A DNA stretch of 32,191 nucleotides. Origin: Fonticula-like sp. SCN 57-25. Its lineage: Eukaryota. This document shows, one piece after another, positions 6,274-32,191 of the stretch. The stretch is taken from the NCBI GenBank assembly GCA_001724245.1, contig MEDX01000101.1, forward strand, positions 1-32,191, given 5' to 3'. Under the pieces are notes generated by a model, which saw nothing but the letters and a program-made list of their open reading frames with translations, ran no database searches and had not been told where the DNA came from. Position 1 is the stretch's first letter, and every line of letters starts with the position of its first letter. The position numbers were made by a program, and so were the translations under genes.

Positions 6274-12048
<5,775 letters not shown>

Positions 12049-13623: not shown

Positions 13624-16379
13624 CTAAACGATAACGGTAACGGCGGCATTTCTCGCATTCGCCGCATTTCCCGCCACATTCTGCTGCTGCATTTGCTTCT
13701 TGCTCGGCCCCTTGCACTTTTTGCACGTGGCCCCACAGTGCCTACACGCATTCCTCTGCTGATCAATAACATACTGCTCGGCGATGCTGCTGATCTTTGC
13801 ATAAAGCTGCTCGTTAATCCCCTGCATGCGCTCTGCGCGCTCCTCAGCCGCCTTGAGCCTCACAAACATATTGTCATGAAGCGCAGCAAATGATTCGCTC
13901 AGGCGCTTGACGCGCATCACCGGATCCTCGAGCGCCGCCATCATCTGGAGCGATCGCTGCGCTTCGGCAACTTCGCGCTCAAGCTGCTTCACGGCACGTG
14001 CCTGGTCACGTGCACGCTTGTCGTCGGTCTTTTTTCCCGCCTTTTTTCCCATCTTGTTCCCGGGCCGCTGCATCATCATCTCATCGTCCGACTCGACCAT
14101 CTCGTCGGTTTCGTCGGTTTCGTCGGTTTCATCGTCGGTTTCATCGAGCGCGAACCTGACCGACGGCGATGCCGCGATCGCCGCCGCGCCGGTCACGATC
14201 GGCCTCGCGATCGGGTTCTCGAGCCTCGCCGTCATAATTTTCTCCATTTCCGCGAGCGCGTCCACGTGCTCGCGCGGCGGCCACTCCACTCCAATCCCCC
14301 TCAGCGTCTGCTCGAGCAGCGCGTTCGCCTCCCTGCGCTCCGCCTGCGCCGCATCCGCCGCATCCGCAGCCGATCCCGATTGTTCCGGGTCACGTGACGC
14401 AGCATCCGCCGCCACCCTTGCCTGCTCCGCGGCAAGATCGACTCGATCTTGCTGCTCGGCGATCGCCACGAGCGCGTCCAAAAGCCTGTTCTTGCGACCA
14501 CTTCCCGGTCCAGCGAGTCGATCTTGCAGCTCGTTGATGCGATCTGCTTCGCGGTTGTGCTTTTGGATGAGGTCGAGGCTTTCTGCGTCTTTGCGTTCGA
14601 TCTCGGATTTGAGCTGGGCCATGAGCTCTTGGGATTCGAGGAGGAGGTTGCGGTAGCGGTCGATCGTGGCAGAGTCTTGGATGGCTTGCTCTTCCTGAGG
14701 GAATGTTAGTGAAGGAAGGAAAGAAGGAGGGAACGAGAGATAGAAGGAAGGAGAAGAGAGGTATAGATATAGGTATAGATATAGATAGACATATACATAC
14801 ATGATCACATACAGATACAGATACAGATACACATACAGATACATATACATATACTCATACCCATACTCATACCCATACTCATACATGTACAGATACAGAT
14901 ACAGGTACAGATACCGACACATGTACATGTACATATACAGATATAGATAGACATACCCATACATATACCCATACAGATACACGTACACATACACATACAG
15001 ATATACATACAGATACATGATCACATACATGATCACATACAGACACAGATACAGATACAGATACACATATGCATACACATACACATACACATACACAAAC
15101 TCATACACATACATGTACATATACACATATTCATGATCATACCCATACAGATACACAATGTCATACTACACATACATACACATATACATATACATATACA
15201 TATACAGATACATACACTACCATCATACTCATACCTATACCCATACTCATACTCATTCCCAAATTATATCATCCCTATCTACCCCCCCTTTCCTCTCCTT
15301 CTACGTACGAGACTCTCACACTGATTGGTCAACCTCCCCAACAAATCCCCATAATCCTTATACACGCTATTCAGCGCATTATCCCCCTCATCCAGCTTCC
15401 TTCCCGCCTGCGTCAGCTGATGCTTGAGCAGATTAATCACCCCCTGAAGCTGCTCCAGCTCCTCGTCCGTCGGCAGCCTCATACCCAAATGCTTATTAAA
15501 AAGGTGCGCAAGAAAGGCCACGTTGAGATCGCGCCGCTTATTCTTGAGGTTTTCCGCGGTAATGTACCTGCGGCAGCCGGCCATTGTCGCGCACTTTAGC
15601 AGTGCTTTGTAGCGCTTTTCGACGTCGTCTTGCTCGAGCGCGCTCTTAATAAGCGGCAAATCGACCGACAGCGGCGCCACACGCCTAAGCAATCTCAATA
15701 TAACTTCGCCGTCCTCGAGGTCTTCGGCAAAGTTGGTGAGGCGGCGGTCAGTGCCGTCGCGCTTGATGTGGTAGTTTACCCAGCGCGTGAGGATGACTTC
15801 GGGGCCGAGCTCGCACAGCTGCTGCACGCCTTCGCGCTCTTCGAGCAGGTACACGAGCTCGGGGTGGCCGCTGACGCCGACGTTCGCGAGAAGGTAGGCG
15901 CGCATGATGTGCCAGAGGAGGCCGAGGACGATCTTGCGGTTGGCGTGGATGATGTCAAAGGGGCCGCAGTTGGTCATGCGCAGGCCGAGCTTGCCGACGC
16001 CTTCGAGCACGCGGTTAACGTTGCTGGTCGCGTCAAAGACGGCGCGCGCAGAGTTGGGCAGCGCGGCGGGGGGGGGTTGCTGGAAGGAGCTCGAGCCGTT
16101 GCCGGTGGGGGGTTTAACTGCGGCGCGCTGGGCGCGGAGGGCGGCGTGGTCAATGTTGGTGTGCATCTTGCTGATGTCGACGGAGCCGGATTTGACGGCG
16201 TTGACGAATTTGGCGAGGATGAGGCCGTCGATGCAGGCTTCGACGAGCGTGTTGCCGGCGAGAGGGAGGAGATGGCGGACATGCTTGTCTTCGGCCAAGA
16301 GCTCATTGAGCTCATCGACAATCGCCTGGCATTCGGCGTCTTCGTCGCGAAAGTAGCTGCCCGTTTCAAGCTGCACCAT
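13624..16379 (-). CDS. Fimbrin/plastin-type single actin-binding domain (CH-CH) fused to a long coiled coil and a C-terminal CxxC-xxx-CxxC motif, 713 aa; intron 14695-15308
   Basis: DGLILAKFVN, NVNRVL...LG..TNCG..DI.....IVLGLLWHI, HPELVYLL...E....L..LGPEVIL.RWVNYH, TNFAEDLEDG and DLNVAFLAHLFN correspond to fimbrin ABD1. Exon 2 is heptad-rich and ends ACRHCGATCKKCKG. Spliced length 2142 nt. Confidence 0.85.
14760..15255. repeat. Intronic hexamer microsatellite (ATACAC/ATACAG/ATACTC/ATACCC)n
   Basis: Read directly; it produces the spurious MYLYVY and HTHTHT ORF segments. Confidence 0.9.
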
Positions 16380-21188: not shown

Positions 21189-24100
21189 TTATGTTGAATT
21201 CTGTTCGAAATCGCTTGATGGCGCGTCATATGAAAATGACCCTACTGCCGACATCTCCTCTTCAACAACCTCATTGGGCCGCCACGTGTCCAAGACGTCC
21301 ACGAGGACATCACCATTATAAAGCGCGCCCTTTTCGCGCATCAGACCCATAACACGCCGCCACGTGGCGCTCGTCTCGATTGCGTGACCACATGCAACAA
21401 GGATAAGATGACGTTTTGCGCGGGAAATTGCGACATTTACGCGACGCGCAGAGTCAACAAAGTCGTTTTGGCCGGCACGTGAGCGCACGCATGAAATTAT
21501 GATGACGTCACGTTCGGCGCCTTGGAAGGCGTCGACAGTCGAGACTTGTGGGAAGGAAGCTGATTGGGCAGATAATTGGTCTGATATCACTTTTGTTTGT
21601 GCTCGATCTAGGAAAGAATCAGTACATAAAAATACGTAAATAAGCAAAAAATATGCGTAAAAAGACACAAAAAAAGCAAAAAACATGCCTAAAAATACAC
21701 AAAAATACACAAAAATACACATGAACCTCCCAAAAAATCACCAAAAATCGTACATAAAGAGATGACACCGACACGGTCGTCTGAAATTCCGTTCTTTCTA
21801 AGCGCCTCAATAATCATGACAACGGCGCGCGCCTCATCAAAATTGCAAAAACTGTCGCCTTGCTTTCGCTCCTGCCCCTGATGAATGTCCACAAAGGAAA
21901 GTGCGGGCAGATTTGTAACGGCCGGCGGGCGATCATTGGCTTGTACGCCATGCTCAATTTGACCATTATAAAAGAGCGTATTCGATAGCTGCGCTATATC
22001 TGGGTGACACTACAAAAATTGATGTTAGAAAGACACATAAAAAGACACATAAAAAGGCACGAAATCATATAAAAAGACACATAAAAAGACACAGAATCAT
22101 ATACAATCATACAAAAATGCACATTAAAAACACATATATCTTTTCTTTTCGTACCCTATATTGAATCATGAGCTTTTGCACACTTGCACCTGCCTCATCC
22201 AATCTCTCAAAAAGCGTCCTTTCCAACCCCTTTACTCCACTTTCACCCCCCTTTTCACCCCCCGGCAATGTCGGCGGCAACTGAAGCGGGTCACCCACAG
22301 CAACAATCCCAGTCGGTTTAAATCTCACCGCAGGAACGACGCTCATTGGCTCAACCGCCTGGCTGCACTCGTCCAGTAAAAGGTAGCGACACGTGACGTC
22401 ATCAAGTGAGCGTGAGTTTGTGGACGCAAAGGTTGTTGCGATGAGAAAGGCGGCCGTGATTAGTGCGCGGCTGCGCTGCGATCGGAGTCGATCGAGAGCG
22501 GATTTTAGATATGGAATGTCGCCGGGCGGTAAATTATCAGACCGTAAAAGTTGCTGAATTTCCTTGATTTCTATCAAACTATTAGCGCAAATAAAGACAT
22601 AAAATGTACTAAAAATAGATAATAAAATAAATATACCTTCGTCGTTGTTGGACTGTTTGCTGCCGGCGACAAAGGGAAGAACGGGTCGGGCAATTCTCCG
22701 AATACTTCCGACGCGCACAAATTGCTCAAATCCCATGTCCAACAAGCACATCAGCACACGATCAACTATCAATCAACTTAATACATAATTAAATAGAAAA
22801 TATGGCCACGTACTGGCGACGTTTGTGACGGAAGCCAATGCGACTTTCATATCTTTATCGATCAGTTTTGCCACGCGATGCAGAAAGAGAACGATTGTGG
22901 CGACGAGCATTGACTTTCCCGCGCCAAACACGCCGTGAACGAGAAGGACGGGGTGATGAGGGCCGTTAGTTTGGGCGAGGCCACGTGCTACGTTGAAGAG
23001 AACGTCGCGCTGATGGGTGTTTAGCGAGTGTGTGTCAGCAATTGTGTGGGCAGTTGACATGACTTGTGAGGCTATCGAAGTTGGCTGAGCGCGAAGGGGT
23101 GTACTGTGAAAGTAGTTAGGAAAGTATTATGATAGAGTGTACGTACATGACGCCAGTTGCGATATATGACATAATAGGCGAATTTGCAATATCTGTATCA
23201 AGTGTATCTACATTCATATGTCAGTCAAAGTAAAAATTTCCTATTGTTCAGTACCGAGCATGAGAAATTCCGAGCTTGCGTCCGCGACACGAAGTGCGAT
23301 AATGCTGCTCATTCGCTCGAGTGTGGCCCATTGTTGGTCGCTCCCGGTGAGTGGCTTGAGCTCGACGCGGCCGTTACTGTCGGGGCCAAAAAAGGAGCTG
23401 CGCGCAAGTACGGCGTCTACCATGGTCGCGGTCGGCGCGAGTGCCCACAGGTCATCCTTGGCATAACTAAAACGGGCAAAAATGAGCTATAAAAAGGACT
23501 ATTAAATAGTTCATACTTGCTTGTGTGCATTTTGCGCTTGATTGTTGCGTGGTAAACGATGCCTTTGACCCACTTTTCGCGGCATCGAGCGAGCGTGCTG
23601 TCCACGTGAAGTGCGACGCCGCGCATGCGGCACGTGCGCTCATGCTCAGAGTTGAGTGGCTGGCCGACATTGCCGCCGTCAAGTCCAAGTGTAGAGTATA
23701 AAGTAATTGCGCTCTGAGCAAGTGCGACTTGTAAAAGTTCGGCGACGGCGGCAGAAAAGCAATCACGATAGGCGGCGACCGAGGCAAAAGTCGTCGGGAT
23801 TGCGGCTGTGCGCTGCGGTCGAGCTGACGCGCGCACCATTGGGGAGCCAAGCGAGGGAAAGAAAAGTGCCGCAGTGCATGAGGCAGAGTGTGGCGTCGGC
23901 AATGAAGCAGCAGATTTGCGTCTTGGGCGGTCGCCGTCGTCGTCATCGTCGCCGTCGTCGTCGCCTCTGCGATACCGCCCTTTTCTCATCTTGAACGCCA
24001 TCATTTTGCGCCGCTGTTTATGACGGCTCGTCTCATCTTCATCATCAATATCTTCGTCATAAACTGGTTTTCTCGCGGGAGCTTCATGGCGAGGCCGAGG

Positions 24101-27677: not shown

Positions 27678-29515
<1,838 letters not shown>

Positions 29516-29698
29516 GAGGATGCCGATGTTGTATAGTCAAGAGGTCAAATTACGAATAGAACTATTGAGAAATGAAAAGTATACTGTTTTCTATTTTACA
29601 CAAAAGAAGCATTGAAATACTGTTAAAACTTTTATTGCTTTGTGACATGGGTACACAAGAATGATAAGGAAAAGAAAGAAATGCTATGCACAATCATA

Positions 29699-31126
29699 TC
29701 AAAGTTGAAGATCGAGTACCCATTGACGAACAGATTGAAGCACAGGAGAGATGCGCTCGACCACAGTATCATCGTCGGTATGGAAAGGCTGTGCAGAAAA
29801 AGAGTCGAAAAGCGAGGAAGCAACGACAAAGTAAAGGTCCTTGAGGCCCAATTTCTCCACAAGGGTCTCGAGCTGCTTGGCGTTGATTGGGTGATCACGT
29901 GACACTGCGATTTGAAACAGACCTTCAGAGGTGATGGAATCCACCGCAGCCGGATGCTTGTTAAGCGGGTAATAATAGCGGTTTTCCGTCAAGTCAACTT
30001 GACTGACGTCATCAAAGTATCGCGCTTCAAGCTTGGGCAGACGCAGTGGTCTTTCCCTTTCATTATCGTCGCCGAGGTTACGGATGCGCATCTTGCCTCC
30101 GTTGCGCAGCGCCACGTGCGCGAGTCCCTCAAACACATAGCCTCTTATGTCACCTTCACAAAAAGGCCTGGCTCCTGCACTGACGTAGCTCACAAGCTCT
30201 GTGCGCTGGTAACGCAAGATACGTTCGGTTACGAGCATGGCAATGTGAGTAGATGCGTAACGCAAGCTTTTGGTCTGAAACTTGGGGGCGACAACGTGAA
30301 AGTGAAGTAGATGGGAATAATCTTCTTCGTCGGAAATATATCCAATGCTGCTCTGTGCCATTTGAAGACTCGAAGAGCTTATCGCGCCAAGCAATTCCAT
30401 CTCTCGCTGACAGTCATATACCTTATTGACCCTCTGAAGGACCTCGCGAGGGATCCCGCCCCATACACTGAACAATTTAGCAACACGGCTGGCGGGCAGA
30501 CGTTTAAAGAGCGCCGCTCGGCACATCTCCAGTTCTTCCATTGTCCACACGGGCATGAACGCCTTGAACGCATCTTGCACTTTAAGAAACCTCCTGAACA
30601 CGCTCCGGCGCGGCGACGTGACCATCACGACGCGCGCCGCACACTCGTGCGCGCCGTGCGCGTCCACGATAAACCACGTCGCGGGATCTTTTAGGTACTT
30701 TTCAAAGCCTCCTGTACCCGCTGCGCGCACTTGCACGGTCCCGTCTGGTAACAAAAGGTACCGATCGGAAGAGTTGGCGGAAACAAGACAGTCTTGCCTG
30801 GGCGGCTCATAGACAATCGTGGCTTTTTCCTTTGCAAGTCGCCACATCAAATACGCAGCAAAAAAGGTCTTGCCAATACCCGGGTTTCCAGTTACTACCC
30901 ACTTGGACGACCACGGGATGCCCGCCCTTGCAGTGAGCGTGTTGTACGTGCTGTCACTCAACAAATCGAAGAGCTGCGCATAGCAGGATCGCAAAAAAAA
31001 GTTGCTCTTCAGGGGCACGCGACCCAGAACAAAAACACCACGCGGAAGATCAACAAAGGCTCCATTCAACGATGCCTCTTGGCGAACCAGGGTGCCCCAG
31101 AAGGCGCTGATTTTCGCGTGGTCCAT
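29699..31126 (-). CDS. Crinkler/RHS-type P-loop NTPase + restriction-endonuclease-fold effector module, 475 aa from the first in-frame ATG, intronless, no CRN header domain
   Basis: FW..L...LP.GV..LG...R.CY..L, VTGNPGIGKT (Walker A), WFIVD (Walker B), TSP, FMPVWT.EEL..C, WGGIPR.VL, RGYVFEGLAH..L..GG, YYYP.....AVDS....LFQ..VS..HPI, LYFVV...F..F..Q and RQWVL.L match the CR-NTPase+REase C-terminal modules of Crinklers as I recall them. Confidence 0.82.
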   Translation of the reverse strand: MDHAKISAFWGTLVRQEASLNGAFVDLPRGVFVLGRVPLKSNFFLRSCYAQLFDLLSDSTYNTLTARAGIPWSSKWVVTGNPGIGKTFFAAYLMWRLAKEKATIVYEPPRQDCLVSANSSDRYLLLPDGTVQVRAAGTGGFEKYLKDPATWFIVDAHGAHECAARVVMVTSPRRSVFRRFLKVQDAFKAFMPVWTMEELEMCRAALFKRLPASRVAKLFSVWGGIPREVLQRVNKVYDCQREMELLGAISSSSLQMAQSSIGYISDEEDYSHLLHFHVVAPKFQTKSLRYASTHIAMLVTERILRYQRTELVSYVSAGARPFCEGDIRGYVFEGLAHVALRNGGKMRIRNLGDDNERERPLRLPKLEARYFDDVSQVDLTENRYYYPLNKHPAAVDSITSEGLFQIAVSRDHPINAKQLETLVEKLGLKDLYFVVASSLFDSFSAQPFHTDDDTVVERISPVLQSVRQWVLDLQL

Positions 31127-31519
31127 TCCACCGCAAGACACGATTGCGCATGCTGACCTCCGTTGGCAGTTGCCGCCGACATCATGACAATGTCATGTCA
31201 GCATAGAGTTCAATCGTGATGTGATTGGTTCGTTTTGGATGGAATCGCGATGCCAAGTGATCAGTGAAATTCAATCACTTTGCACCATAAGCAGGGCATA
31301 AAGAAAGCACGCAGTGGTCGAGCTGGGCGCCAAGAAATGATATAGGGGTATAATGGTGCTAAATGGTATTATAGAGGCCAGTAACACTGCAACAAAGCCG
31401 AATCGCTACATATTAAATCATCGCATGGCAATTATAAGCAAGAGATCGGCTCAAAGGTCGACTATTAACAACCCTATTGCCCTCGGACATACTTGAAGCT
31501 CTCCCAAGGCTTCCAAATA

Positions 31520-32191
31520 CTAGCTAAAACATAGCTTACTAACAGTAGCCGCGCACCCGCGCTCTGCGCAAAACATTAGAAACGCGTTGATAACTAAAGG
31601 GCAACGTACGGGTGCACGGGTTAGTGACACCTTCCCAGGTTCCGGCAGCAGTGCAGTAGGACGTGGGCGAGCCCTGGTAACCAGCAGCGCAGGTGCCGGT
31701 CGCCGTCGTCAACGAGTTGGTGACGGGAAAGTGGGCAGCTCCAATCGTGGTTGCAGCGCAGCTGATGCCTATCATCAAACATTAGCATGACAGCAAAGCA
31801 TGCTGCGAAAGCGTACGAGTGCACGACGCGGTGGCGGCGCCCCACTCACCAGTGTTGCTGCACGGGCGCGTGGCAGAACCGGAATAGCCCGAAAGGCACG
31901 TGCCAGTGGCGGAAGTGCCTGCGTTGGTCGTCGGGAAGTTGGCATTACCGACCCCGTCCGAAACAGCGGCGCAGGTGATCTCTGCATTGCAAAGTAAGTA
32001 ACTGGCATATGATGCAAAGAAAAACGCACTCGTGCAGGGATTCGACACAGCGCCCCACATCTTGTTGTTGCAGGAAGCAGTCGGGGTGCCTTGGAAGGTG
32101 GTCTGGCAAGTACCAGTGACGGTCGAGCCAGTGCCGGACTTGGGGAAGTTGGCGTTGCCCATCGAAGCAGCTTCGCAGGCAGAGTAGGTGC
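31520..32191 (-). CDS. Partial Cys-rich tandem-repeat protein (about 52-aa HRM/HormR- or sushi-like repeats); phase-1 introns 31982-32029, 31769-31816, 31564-31609; 3' end unresolved
   Basis: Three full repeats C....G.A.FP.T..G...TGTC..GY.G.PT..C...G.W..V.NPC, each ending at a GT-AG phase-1 intron. A fourth repeat starts (QRGCAATV) and breaks off at a GTAAGC donor (31539) or runs to a stop at 31520-31522. Confidence 0.75.

What the first reader, a model, noticed from the sequence alone, without database searches (positions are those of the whole stretch)
29699..32191. Possible splice fusion of Cys-rich HRM-like repeats onto the Crinkler toxin module (new header type)
Seen: the co-oriented repeat gene stops abruptly 8 codons into its fourth repeat at a phase-1 GTAAGC donor (31539), with no normal C-terminus. 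A CAG at 31155-31153, downstream of a branch-like GCTGAC (31202-31197), is phase-1 compatible with the CRN frame and gives ...CAATV-T-CAIVSCGGMDHAKISAFW.... CAIVSC resembles the CTRISC repeat junction. Any of the phase-1 repeat donors would also join in frame. Inference: a receptor-binding repeat array + NTPase + nuclease polymorphic toxin, or else an insertion that truncated the repeat gene. Caveats: the branch-to-AG distance (about 45 nt) is long, there is no pyrimidine tract, a GAG precedes the CAG, and an alternative acceptor exists at 31387-31389.
Basis: inference. Interest (0 to 1): 0.7.

Follow-up and report, generated by a model that had tools for sequence, protein, structure and literature searches.

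The report
Neighbouring genes, not a spliced fusion
A stand-alone Crinkler/RHS-type ATPase-plus-nuclease gene lies just downstream of a cut-short surface-protein gene in an uncultured protist, and the proposed splice joining the two has no support, so this looks like two ordinary neighbouring genes.

Summary
The features do not exceed chance, and the fusion reading is not supported.

- **Downstream ORF (31126..29699, minus strand, 475 aa).** It is an intronless member of the Crinkler/RHS (CR) family: a STAND-type P-loop NTPase followed by a restriction-endonuclease-like domain.
- **Its start.** The module begins at its own ATG, in a good Kozak context. Homologue alignments begin essentially at that Met (3 of 150 reach 3-8 residues further up), and the closest relative is also 475 aa and starts at the same place.
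- **No precedent for the fusion.** 54 relatives with N-terminal extensions were scanned and none carries a Cys-rich repeat. Five carry the Crinkler ubiquitin-like header and one carries PB1.
- **Proposed intron (387 nt).** It is six times the longest of 15 trusted introns (44-64 nt). Its acceptor scores -3.7, against 3.1 to 10.8 for the trusted set, and falls below 20 other AGs nearby.
- **Upstream gene.** It encodes Sushi/HRM-like modules, one per phase-1 exon, and ends in a truncated fourth module at TAG 31522-31520.

Best reading: two genes. The CR gene probably arrived by a rearrangement that replaced the 3' end of the repeat gene. No RNA data could be obtained, so this rests on sequence evidence only.

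The parts
32030..32191 (-). Repeat-gene exon holding the end of one Sushi/HRM-like module. It runs off the window edge, so the gene's 5' part lies outside the window.
   Evidence: A homologue, P0155 (83% identical), shows an EGF-like Cys pattern just upstream of this module.
31982..32029 (-). Phase-1 intron, 48 nt, donor GTGCGT, acceptor TGCAG.
31817..31981 (-). Exon encoding one complete four-Cys Sushi/HRM-like module.
   Evidence: Pfam gives HRM at 21.7 bits (cut-off 26.2) and Sushi at 19.0 bits (cut-off 20.7). The nearest Atlas cluster is 'Hormone receptor/Sushi repeat', score 0.95.
31769..31816 (-). Phase-1 intron, 48 nt, donor GTACGC, with a CTAAT branch-like site.
31610..31768 (-). Exon encoding the third Sushi/HRM-like module.
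31564..31609 (-). Phase-1 intron, 46 nt, donor GTACGT, with a TCTAAT branch-like site.
31520..31563 (-). Last visible exon. It holds the first eight codons of a fourth module (RGCAATV), then SKLCFS and the stop TAG at 31522-31520. Similarity to the other repeats ends at about 31543.
31534..31539 (-). It is plausible as a donor.
   Evidence: Its PWM score is 7.0, against 2.7 to 13.0 for the 15 trusted donors. It lacks the C at +4 that 13 of the 15 carry.
31271..31405 (-). A 44-codon hydrophobic ORF plus TGA. It lies behind the best acceptor-like AG in the region (31406) and the alternative AG (31387). It could be a terminal membrane-anchor exon of the repeat gene, but this is not significant.
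   Evidence: Acceptor PWM scores are 10.7 at 31406 and 4.0 at 31387. The best Kyte-Doolittle 19-residue mean is 2.16, which ranks 34 of 488 ORFs of similar length in the window. Frames were checked.
31193..31195 (-). In-frame TGA that closes the CR frame upstream. It is one of six in-frame stops between the two coding regions.
31153..31155 (-). It is phase-1 compatible but a very poor site.
   Evidence: Its PWM score is -3.7, against 3.1 to 10.8 for the trusted acceptors, and it falls below 20 other AGs in 31100-31600. The branch-like GCTGAC lies 44 nt upstream, against 6-23 nt in the trusted set, and a GAG lies in between.
29699..31126 (-). Intronless coding sequence of a header-less CR (Crinkler/RHS-type) protein, 475 aa (P0001). 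ATG is at 31126 and the stop at 29701-29699.
   Evidence: The start has G at -3 and G at +4.
30194..31108 (-). STAND/AAA+-type P-loop NTPase with a helical/winged-helix part (residues about 7-311). Walker A GNPGIGKT is at 30889-30866.
   Evidence: The model has pLDDT 89.1. VIA-align gives Z 10.3 to mS29, and Z 8 to 10 to NB-ARC, Cdc6/ORC, TnsC and MuB. The top Foldseek match is SAMD9.
29702..30169 (-). C-terminal restriction-endonuclease-like domain (residues 320-475). E333, H337, D396, Q405 and H412 are conserved. The near-invariant T407 and P436 are both Ala here.
   Evidence: The domain model has pLDDT 94.0. The VIA-align list is dominated by PD-(D/E)xK nucleases, but the best Z is only 4.9. 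Foldseek gives no match at E <= 0.001.
29631..29636 (-). AATAAA, 63 nt downstream of the CR stop. It may be a poly(A) signal.
   Evidence: Seen. It is not known whether this organism uses the signal.

Best explanation
These are two separate, co-oriented genes.

1. **Upstream gene.** This is the 3' end of a gene for an extracellular mosaic protein. It has an EGF-like part and then Sushi/HRM-like four-Cys modules, each encoded by one symmetrical phase-1 exon. Its fourth module is cut off after eight codons, and the frame closes at TAG 31522-31520.

2. **Downstream gene.** This is an intronless, header-less member of the Crinkler/RHS (CR) family, translated from its own ATG at 31126. By analogy with the family it is a STAND-type P-loop NTPase that controls a restriction-endonuclease-fold domain acting on nucleic acid. 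It has no signal peptide and no header, so it most likely acts inside the protist's own cell, as a selfish-element-derived or defence-type NTPase-nuclease, and is not exported.

The CR gene most likely reached this place by a rearrangement or insertion that replaced the original 3' end of the repeat gene.

Shown: gene identities, frames, splice-site quality and the N-terminal limit of homology. Inferred: independent transcription, the insertion history, nuclease activity and the site of action.
For: **The module begins at its own Met.**
- In the all-against-all search there were 2257 hits at E <= 0.001. In the 150 listed, alignments start at query residues 23-31 or later of the 497-residue stop-to-stop frame, except three that reach residues 15-20. 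Residue 23 is the Met.
- The closest relative, P0002 (67% identical), is also 475 aa. It starts Met-Asp at the same position and ends with the same VLDLQL.
- The ATG has G at -3 and G at +4.

**Header-less forms are common in the family.**
- Of 65 relatives whose alignment reaches the module start, 15 have at most 15 residues upstream, and 12 of those 15 start with Met.
- The nearest Atlas clusters are eukaryotic families of 486 and 509 aa. Structural TM-scores are 0.76 to the 486-aa cluster (not given for the 509-aa one), 0.77 to a Crinkler-header cluster and 0.75 to RHS proteins.

**No relative carries a Cys-rich repeat header.**
- Pfam on 54 relatives with extensions found PF20147 (Crinkler header) in 5, PB1 in 1, and no Sushi, HRM or EGF.
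- Of 46 extensions of at least 60 aa, none shows the repeat pattern.
- A search among 833-2375-aa proteins found nothing.

**The proposed splice is poor.**
- The intron would be 387 nt, against 44-64 nt in 15 trusted introns.
- The acceptor scores -3.7, against 3.1 to 10.8.
- The branch-to-AG distance is 44 nt, against 6-23 nt.
- There are six in-frame stops between the two coding regions.

**Hints of foreign or late arrival.**
- The gene has no intron in 1428 nt, while its neighbours have one every 150-450 nt.
- Its GC3 is 0.58, against 0.72-0.83 in eight housekeeping ORFs of the window.

**Family background.** CR C-terminal modules (NTPase + HTH + REase) are described as transposon-derived and as recombining with varied headers (review PMC5289972, section 11, read).
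Against: - No RNA evidence of any kind could be obtained, so independent transcription is not shown.
- Seven upstream ATGs lie within 175 nt of the start. This is awkward for a long 5' UTR and implies either a transcription start within about 25 nt of the ATG or poor translation.
- The 15 'trusted' introns were picked by me from a heuristic that could only find introns of 35-159 nt. The length argument is therefore partly circular. Long, simple-repeat-filled gaps in the HECT gene region suggest that long introns exist here.
- No target-site duplication, terminal repeat or leftover 3' piece of the repeat gene marks an insertion.
- Many header-less database relatives may be truncated gene calls.
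- The donor GTAAGC is itself acceptable, with a score of 7.0.
- The REase fold match is weak, with best Z 4.9.
Confidence: 0.8

Rival explanations
1. A 387-nt phase-1 intron (31539 to 31153) joins the Sushi/HRM repeat array to the CR module. The result would be a secreted or surface repeat-NTPase-nuclease protein with a new header type.
For: - The donor GTAAGC scores within the trusted range, at 7.0.
- The phases match.
- The repeat gene lacks an obvious normal end.
- CR modules are known to combine with varied headers (PMC5289972).
- Seven upstream ATGs would not matter if this region were intronic.
Against: - The acceptor scores -3.7, below all 15 trusted acceptors and below 20 other AGs nearby.
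- The branch-to-AG distance is 44 nt, with a GAG in between.
- The intron would be six times the longest trusted one.
- Homology barely enters the 22 codons upstream of the Met: 3 of 150 alignments reach 3-8 residues of them.
- None of the 54 extended relatives has a Cys-rich header.
- No longer fused form was found.
- Known CR headers are cytoplasmic-type Ubl or helical domains, not disulfide-rich ectodomains.
Confidence: 0.04
2. The repeat gene is not truncated at TAG 31522. A 134-153-nt intron runs from 31539 (or from GTTAGT at 31543) to the AG at 31406 or 31387, leading to a short terminal exon. In two of the three donor-acceptor combinations examined, that exon encodes a hydrophobic, membrane-anchor-like tail ending at TGA 31273-31271. 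The CR gene is still separate.
For: - The AG at 31406 is the best acceptor-like site in the region (10.7), and the one at 31387 scores 4.0, within the trusted range.
- The ORF 31405..31274 has a Kyte-Doolittle 19-residue mean of 2.16.
- A membrane anchor is the expected end of an EGF/Sushi ectodomain protein.
Against: - The hydrophobic ORF ranks only 34 of 488 among ORFs of similar length, so it may be chance in T-rich DNA.
- The best acceptor (31406) paired with the good donor (31539) gives the wrong frame, a 14-codon tail.
- The in-frame pairings need either the weak GTTAGT donor or the weaker acceptor, with the stronger AG lying upstream of it.
- No basic residues follow the hydrophobic stretch.
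- Only about 145 nt would be left before the CR start codon.
Confidence: 0.15
3. A multi-exon receptor: repeats, then the hydrophobic exon, then the CR module. This would be a transmembrane protein with an intracellular NTPase-nuclease.
For: - A phase-2 GTGCTT at 31310 (score 3.8) and the phase-2 AG at 31158 would keep the frame.
Against: - It needs three unusual introns in a row. The last acceptor scores -2.9.
- No relative with such an architecture was found.
Confidence: 0.03
4. The junction at about 31540 is an assembly chimera of a metagenome-assembled contig. If so, the truncation is not biological.
For: - The break falls inside a tandem repeat, near one end of a contig of about 33.6 kb (longest contig for P0001).
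- Repeats are typical sites of misjoins.
Against: - P0001 is recorded on 4 contigs and the repeat ORF P0154 on 2.
- There is no abrupt change of composition at the point.
- Reads could not be examined.
Confidence: 0.05

Closest known systems
CR (Crinkler/RHS-type) proteins with an NTPase + HTH + REase C-terminal module, as defined by Zhang et al. 2016. I saw that work only through the review PMC5289972, section 11.
   Same: It shares the P-loop NTPase followed by a REase-like domain. Some relatives carry the PF20147 Crinkler header (5 of 54). The Atlas model matches Crinkler and RHS clusters at TM 0.75-0.77.
   Different: It has no header domain, no LxLFLAK-type N-terminus and no signal peptide. 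The host is an uncultured protist close to nucleariids, not a known pathogen. T407 and P436, near-invariant in the family, are both Ala here.
Diversispora epigaea Glove_16g200 (P0008, 585 aa).
   Same: It has the same module from the FW motif to the C-terminus, at 29-30% identity.
   Different: P0008 carries the Crinkler N-terminal domain PF20147 in front of the module. The window protein starts at the module.
Capsaspora owczarzaki CAOG_008005, CAOG_009152 and CAOG_08836 (P0009-P0011).
   Same: They share the NTPase part at 33-46% identity.
   Different: They have long Cys-free, disordered or coiled-coil N-terminal regions. Several look partial.
Trypanosomatid retrotransposon hot spot (RHS) proteins, PF07999.
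   Same: The Atlas structure match is TM 0.75 over residues 1-461. Pfam RHSP appears weakly in one relative.
   Different: There is no RHS_N domain, and the window protein has no significant Pfam RHSP hit.
Sushi/CCP and HRM modules of animals, with one module per phase-1 exon.
   Same: It shares the four-Cys spacing with a Trp between Cys3 and Cys4, one module per symmetrical phase-1 exon, and nearest Atlas clusters of HRM/Sushi type.
   Different: The Pfam scores are below the curated cut-offs. The family is small and lineage-specific, with only 4 hits. The introns are only 46-48 nt.

Membership tests
CR (Crinkler/RHS-type) NTPase-REase module | Walker A and Walker B motifs of a P-loop NTPase | tested here: met
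   GNPGIGKT is present, with G80, P82, G83, G85 and K86 invariant. D155 is invariant across the 52 aligned sequences.
CR (Crinkler/RHS-type) NTPase-REase module | STAND/AAA+-like NTPase fold followed by a helical/winged-helix part | tested here: met
   The model has pLDDT 89.1. VIA-align gives Z 10.3 (rmsd 4.7, 201 aligned) to mS29, and Z 8-10 to NB-ARC, Cdc6/ORC, TnsC and MuB. Foldseek matches SAMD9, NLRs and AVAST5 at about 1e-5.
CR (Crinkler/RHS-type) NTPase-REase module | C-terminal restriction-endonuclease (PD-(D/E)xK) fold | tested here: inconclusive
   The domain model has pLDDT 94.0. The best VIA-align match is Z 4.9 (rmsd 3.8, 103 aligned) to R.BspD6I. Most of the top 15 rows are REase-fold nucleases. 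Foldseek finds nothing at E <= 0.001. E333, D396 and Q405 are conserved, but no canonical (D/E)xK lysine is present.
CR (Crinkler/RHS-type) NTPase-REase module | Sequence homology to proteins that carry the Crinkler header (PF20147) or are named Crinkler/RHS | tested here: met
   P0008 matches at E 1.6e-47 and carries PF20147. 5 of the 54 relatives scanned carry PF20147. The Atlas clusters are named Crinkler and RHS.
Crinkler effector in the full sense (header + toxin module) | N-terminal header domain (Ubl/LxLFLAK type or another CR header) | tested here: not met
   The ORF starts at the module. Pfam finds no header. The 414 nt upstream hold only short ORFs closed by stops.
   The donor scores 7.0, which is acceptable. 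The acceptor scores -3.7, against 3.1-10.8. The branch distance is 44 nt, against 6-23 nt. The length is 387 nt, against 44-64 nt. Caveat: the trusted set has 15 introns, was chosen by me, and the heuristic was capped at 159 nt.
   No RNA run was listed and no genome is held.
   0 of the 54 extended relatives have Sushi, HRM or EGF. 0 of the 46 extensions of at least 60 aa show the repeat pattern. Nothing was found among 833-2375-aa proteins (weak evidence).
Sushi/CCP - HRM fold group | Match to the curated family models | tested here: inconclusive
   HRM scores 21.7 bits against a cut-off of 26.2, and Sushi 19.0 against 20.7. The nearest Atlas cluster has HRM in 73% and Sushi in 56% of members, score 0.95.
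Sushi/CCP - HRM fold group | Four Cys per module, with a conserved Trp between Cys3 and Cys4 | tested here: met
   This is read directly from the exon translations.

The most novel reading that the evidence does not exclude
A CR NTPase-nuclease module has landed at the 3' end of a gene built of phase-1 Sushi/HRM exons and is being captured by exon shuffling. Through rare or regulated splicing, possibly via the hydrophobic exon at 31405-31274, the protist would make a surface or transmembrane repeat protein ending in a STAND NTPase-nuclease. That would be a header or receptor type unknown for this family.
Probability: 0.06. Interest if true: 0.75.

Novelty: new member of a known kind. Interest (0 to 1): 0.2.

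Why it matters
If the fusion were real, it would be the first CR/Crinkler module attached to a disulfide-rich extracellular array, and a live example of exon shuffling building a toxin or a receptor. The evidence points the other way.

What remains is modest. It adds a header-less CR module to the catalogue for free-living relatives of fungi. It also gives a possible example of such a module displacing the end of a host gene, which fits the published view that these modules derive from mobile elements.

The one-module-per-phase-1-exon layout of the Sushi/HRM repeats, in a protist outside animals, is a small point of interest for the history of exon shuffling.

Tried and rejected
- **RNA evidence.** No RNA holder was listed for 29600-32191.
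- **Own genome.** None is held, so paralogues in the genome could not be searched.
- **Metagenome scan with P0001.** It returned 1 locus (L001) at only 24% identity. Its upstream ORFs look like an ordinary Ubl-type header split by an intron and are not Cys-rich. The ENA contigs that carry P0002, P0003 and P0155 could not be fetched.
- **Longer fused forms.** None was found among 7998 candidates of 833-2375 aa. This is weak evidence.
- **Signs of an insertion.** No inverted or direct repeats, target-site duplication or dispersed copies touch 29500-31550. No remnant of repeat 4 lies downstream of the CR gene.
- **Hydrophobic ORF 31405..31274 as a membrane anchor.** It ranks 34 of 488, which is not significant. 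It is kept only as a rival explanation.
- **Profile search of the family against PDB sequences.** It gave only P-loop matches, with best E 0.0016.
- **Foldseek on the C-terminal domain.** Nothing at E <= 0.001.
- **Zhang et al. 2016.** It could not be read by DOI or by PMC id. I relied on the review PMC5289972 (passages, section 11). Its supplementary lists of header types were therefore not seen.
- **Literature searches.** Searches for Crinkler together with Sushi or cysteine-rich headers, and with nucleariids, Fonticula or Capsaspora, listed no paper describing such a fusion. I saw listings only, except for one passage of PMC6299283.
- **Earlier scan notes.** Nothing by place or by sequence. 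Three Crinkler-word notes from other genomes were not relevant.
Full report
**Setting.** The window is a gene-dense stretch of a eukaryote. Earlier notes of this scan on other pieces of the same genome call it an uncultured protist near Fonticula and the nucleariids (I did not check this). Pfam identifies an ordinary housekeeping neighbourhood: an EVE-domain protein, a sugar transporter, a HECT ligase, a CH-domain protein, SCAMP, a histidine phosphatase, an Upf1-like helicase, V-ATPase subunit C, SKA2 and SRP54. SRP54 ends at 29515 on the plus strand, 183 nt from the stop of the ORF in question. No whole genome is held and no RNA run was listed. Everything below therefore rests on sequence and comparison.

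**Checking the observation.**
- On the minus strand the repeat gene shows three phase-1 introns of 48, 48 and 46 nt (32029-31982, 31816-31769, 31609-31564).
- Each exon encodes one four-Cys module.
- Exon 4 starts at 31563 and reads RGCAATV. GTAAGC sits at 31539-31534.
- The frame does not end there. It continues through SKLCFS to TAG 31522-31520.
- GCTGAC (31202-31197), GAG (31160-31158), CAG (31155-31153) and the alternative CAG (31389-31387) are all present, and the CAG at 31153 is phase-1 compatible.

The compatibility is at chance level. Only two AGs lie in the 66 nt that are open upstream of the ATG, one in phase 2 and one in phase 1. The two genes happen to share one reading frame, which has six stops between them.

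**What the downstream ORF is.**
- The 475-aa protein (P0001) belongs to a large eukaryotic family: 2257 hits at E <= 0.001 and 147 at E <= 1e-30.
- Pfam itself gives only sub-threshold P-loop matches.
- Relatives include a Diversispora protein with the Crinkler N-terminal domain PF20147. Five of the 54 relatives scanned carry that domain.
- The Atlas places it next to clusters named Crinkler and retrotransposon hot spot protein, with TM 0.75-0.77 over almost the whole length.
- An AlphaFold model (pLDDT 89.1) shows a STAND/AAA+-type NTPase over residues about 7-311. VIA-align gives Z 10.3 to mS29 and Z 8-10 to NB-ARC, Cdc6/ORC, TnsC and MuB. SAMD9 is the top Foldseek match.
- The C-terminal 156 residues were modelled alone (pLDDT 94.0). 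They give a list dominated by PD-(D/E)xK nucleases, but the best Z is only 4.9 and Foldseek finds nothing. I call this domain REase-like, not proven.
- This is the NTPase + HTH + REase layout that the review PMC5289972 (section 11) reports from Zhang et al. 2016 as the commonest CR C-terminus.
- In this copy two near-invariant positions differ: T407 is Ala (50 of 52 have Thr) and P436 is Ala (50 of 52 have Pro).

**Where the protein starts.**
- In nearly all alignments homology begins at the Met or just after it, at the FW motif. Three of the 150 listed reach 3-8 residues into the 22 codons between TGA 31195-31193 and ATG 31126.
- P0002 (67% identical) is also exactly 475 aa, starts Met-Asp at the same place and ends identically.
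- P0004 and P0005 share a different, Cys-poor 23-residue leader.
- The ATG has G at -3 and G at +4.
- Of 65 relatives whose alignment reaches the module start:

| Residues upstream of the module | Relatives |
|---|---|
| at most 15 (12 of them start with Met) | 15 |
| 16-60 | 17 |
| 61-150 | 28 |
| more than 150 | 5 |

- Header-less forms of about 480-510 aa also fill the nearest Atlas clusters.
- Some header-less database entries may be truncated gene calls, so this supports a stand-alone form but does not prove it.

**Is there precedent for a Cys-rich header?** No.
- None of the 54 extended relatives has Sushi, HRM or EGF.
- Of the 46 N-terminal extensions of at least 60 aa, none shows the repeat pattern. 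The one Cys-rich extension (P0126, 11 Cys in 120 aa) is hydrophobic low-complexity sequence.
- The search among longer proteins found nothing (weak evidence).
- The headers described in the review are ubiquitin-like or helical, cytoplasm-type domains.

**Splice-site quality.** I took 15 introns as trusted. Thirteen came from a heuristic scan and two more repeat-gene introns were read by eye. Thirteen of the 15 lie in Pfam-identified genes or in the repeat gene. The comparison is:

|---|---|---|
| Length | 44-64 nt | 387 nt |
| Donor | GTRCGY in 13 of 15; PWM 2.7 to 13.0 | GTAAGC; PWM 7.0 (acceptable) |
| Branch A to 3' splice site | 6-23 nt | 44 nt, with a GAG in between |
| Acceptor PWM | 3.1 to 10.8 | -3.7, below 20 other AGs in 31100-31600 |

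Caveats: the set is small and was chosen by me. The heuristic could not find introns over 159 nt. The proposed intron is unique-sequence DNA and does not look like those.

**What happened to the repeat gene.**
- The modules are HRM/Sushi-like. Pfam scores fall just under the cut-offs, and the nearest Atlas cluster scores 0.95.
- A relative 83% identical (P0155) shows an EGF-like pattern in front of the first module seen here.
- Similarity to the other repeats stops at about 31543.
- No remainder of module 4 lies anywhere downstream. The only space left, 29516-29698, is AT-rich tail sequence.
- There are no terminal repeats or duplications.
- The CR gene has no intron in 1428 nt, in a neighbourhood with an intron every few hundred bases.
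- Its GC3 is 0.58, against 0.72-0.83 for eight housekeeping ORFs.

I therefore infer that the CR gene came in late, by a rearrangement that replaced the 3' end of the repeat gene. This is inference, not demonstration.

**An alternative ending for the repeat gene.**
- Behind them lies a 44-codon hydrophobic ORF (31405..31274) that could serve as a membrane anchor.
- The good donor (31539) paired with the good acceptor (31406) gives the wrong frame.
- The ORF ranks only 34 of 488 for hydrophobicity among ORFs of similar length.
- I keep this as a rival explanation at about 0.15. It does not change the verdict on the fusion.

**Verdict.** These are two neighbouring genes. The fusion is not supported (about 0.04, or about 0.06 counting multi-exon variants). 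The CR gene is a new member of a known family, header-less and probably acting inside the cell. Its activity may be weakened by the two substitutions. Interest is low.

Noticed in passing
window 31564-32191 (-): Each Sushi/HRM-like module is one symmetrical phase-1 exon, separated by 46-48-nt introns. This is the classic exon-shuffling layout of animal CCP modules, seen here in a protist outside animals. Relatives P0156 and P0157 have two modules with no intron between them.
   Followed up: partly
window 7200-11600 and 14700-15220: Long tracts of simple 6-12-nt repeats (TGTATG, TTTATTG, CT-rich, ATACAG types) lie between the HECT-domain ORFs, and also inside the long ORF 13627-15165. They are probably long repeat-filled introns or low-complexity coding sequence.
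   Followed up: no
window 31127-31300 (-): Seven upstream ATGs precede the CR start codon. One opens a uORF at 31185/31182 that overlaps the start in another frame. A CCAAT motif lies at about 31228, and TATA-like words at about 31373 and 31343.
   Followed up: no
P0004 and P0005 (relatives): Two relatives about 45% identical share a nearly identical 23-residue N-terminal leader with a basic KRGR patch, while the rest of the proteins has diverged. This may be a small conserved targeting leader, NLS-like.
   Followed up: no
window 29702-31126 (-): GC3 of the CR ORF is 0.58, against 0.72-0.83 in neighbouring housekeeping ORFs. The helicase ORFs at 21192-22772 are also low (0.44-0.48), so composition is uneven across the window.
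   Followed up: partly
window 29416-29515 (+): The SRP54 C-terminal tail is a run of 9-nt Gly/Met-rich repeats (GGMGG type).
   Followed up: no
L001 698-2269: A relative 24% identical on a 2.5-kb metagenome contig has what looks like a ubiquitin-like header. It lies in separate upstream ORFs, probably split from the module by an intron.
   Followed up: partly
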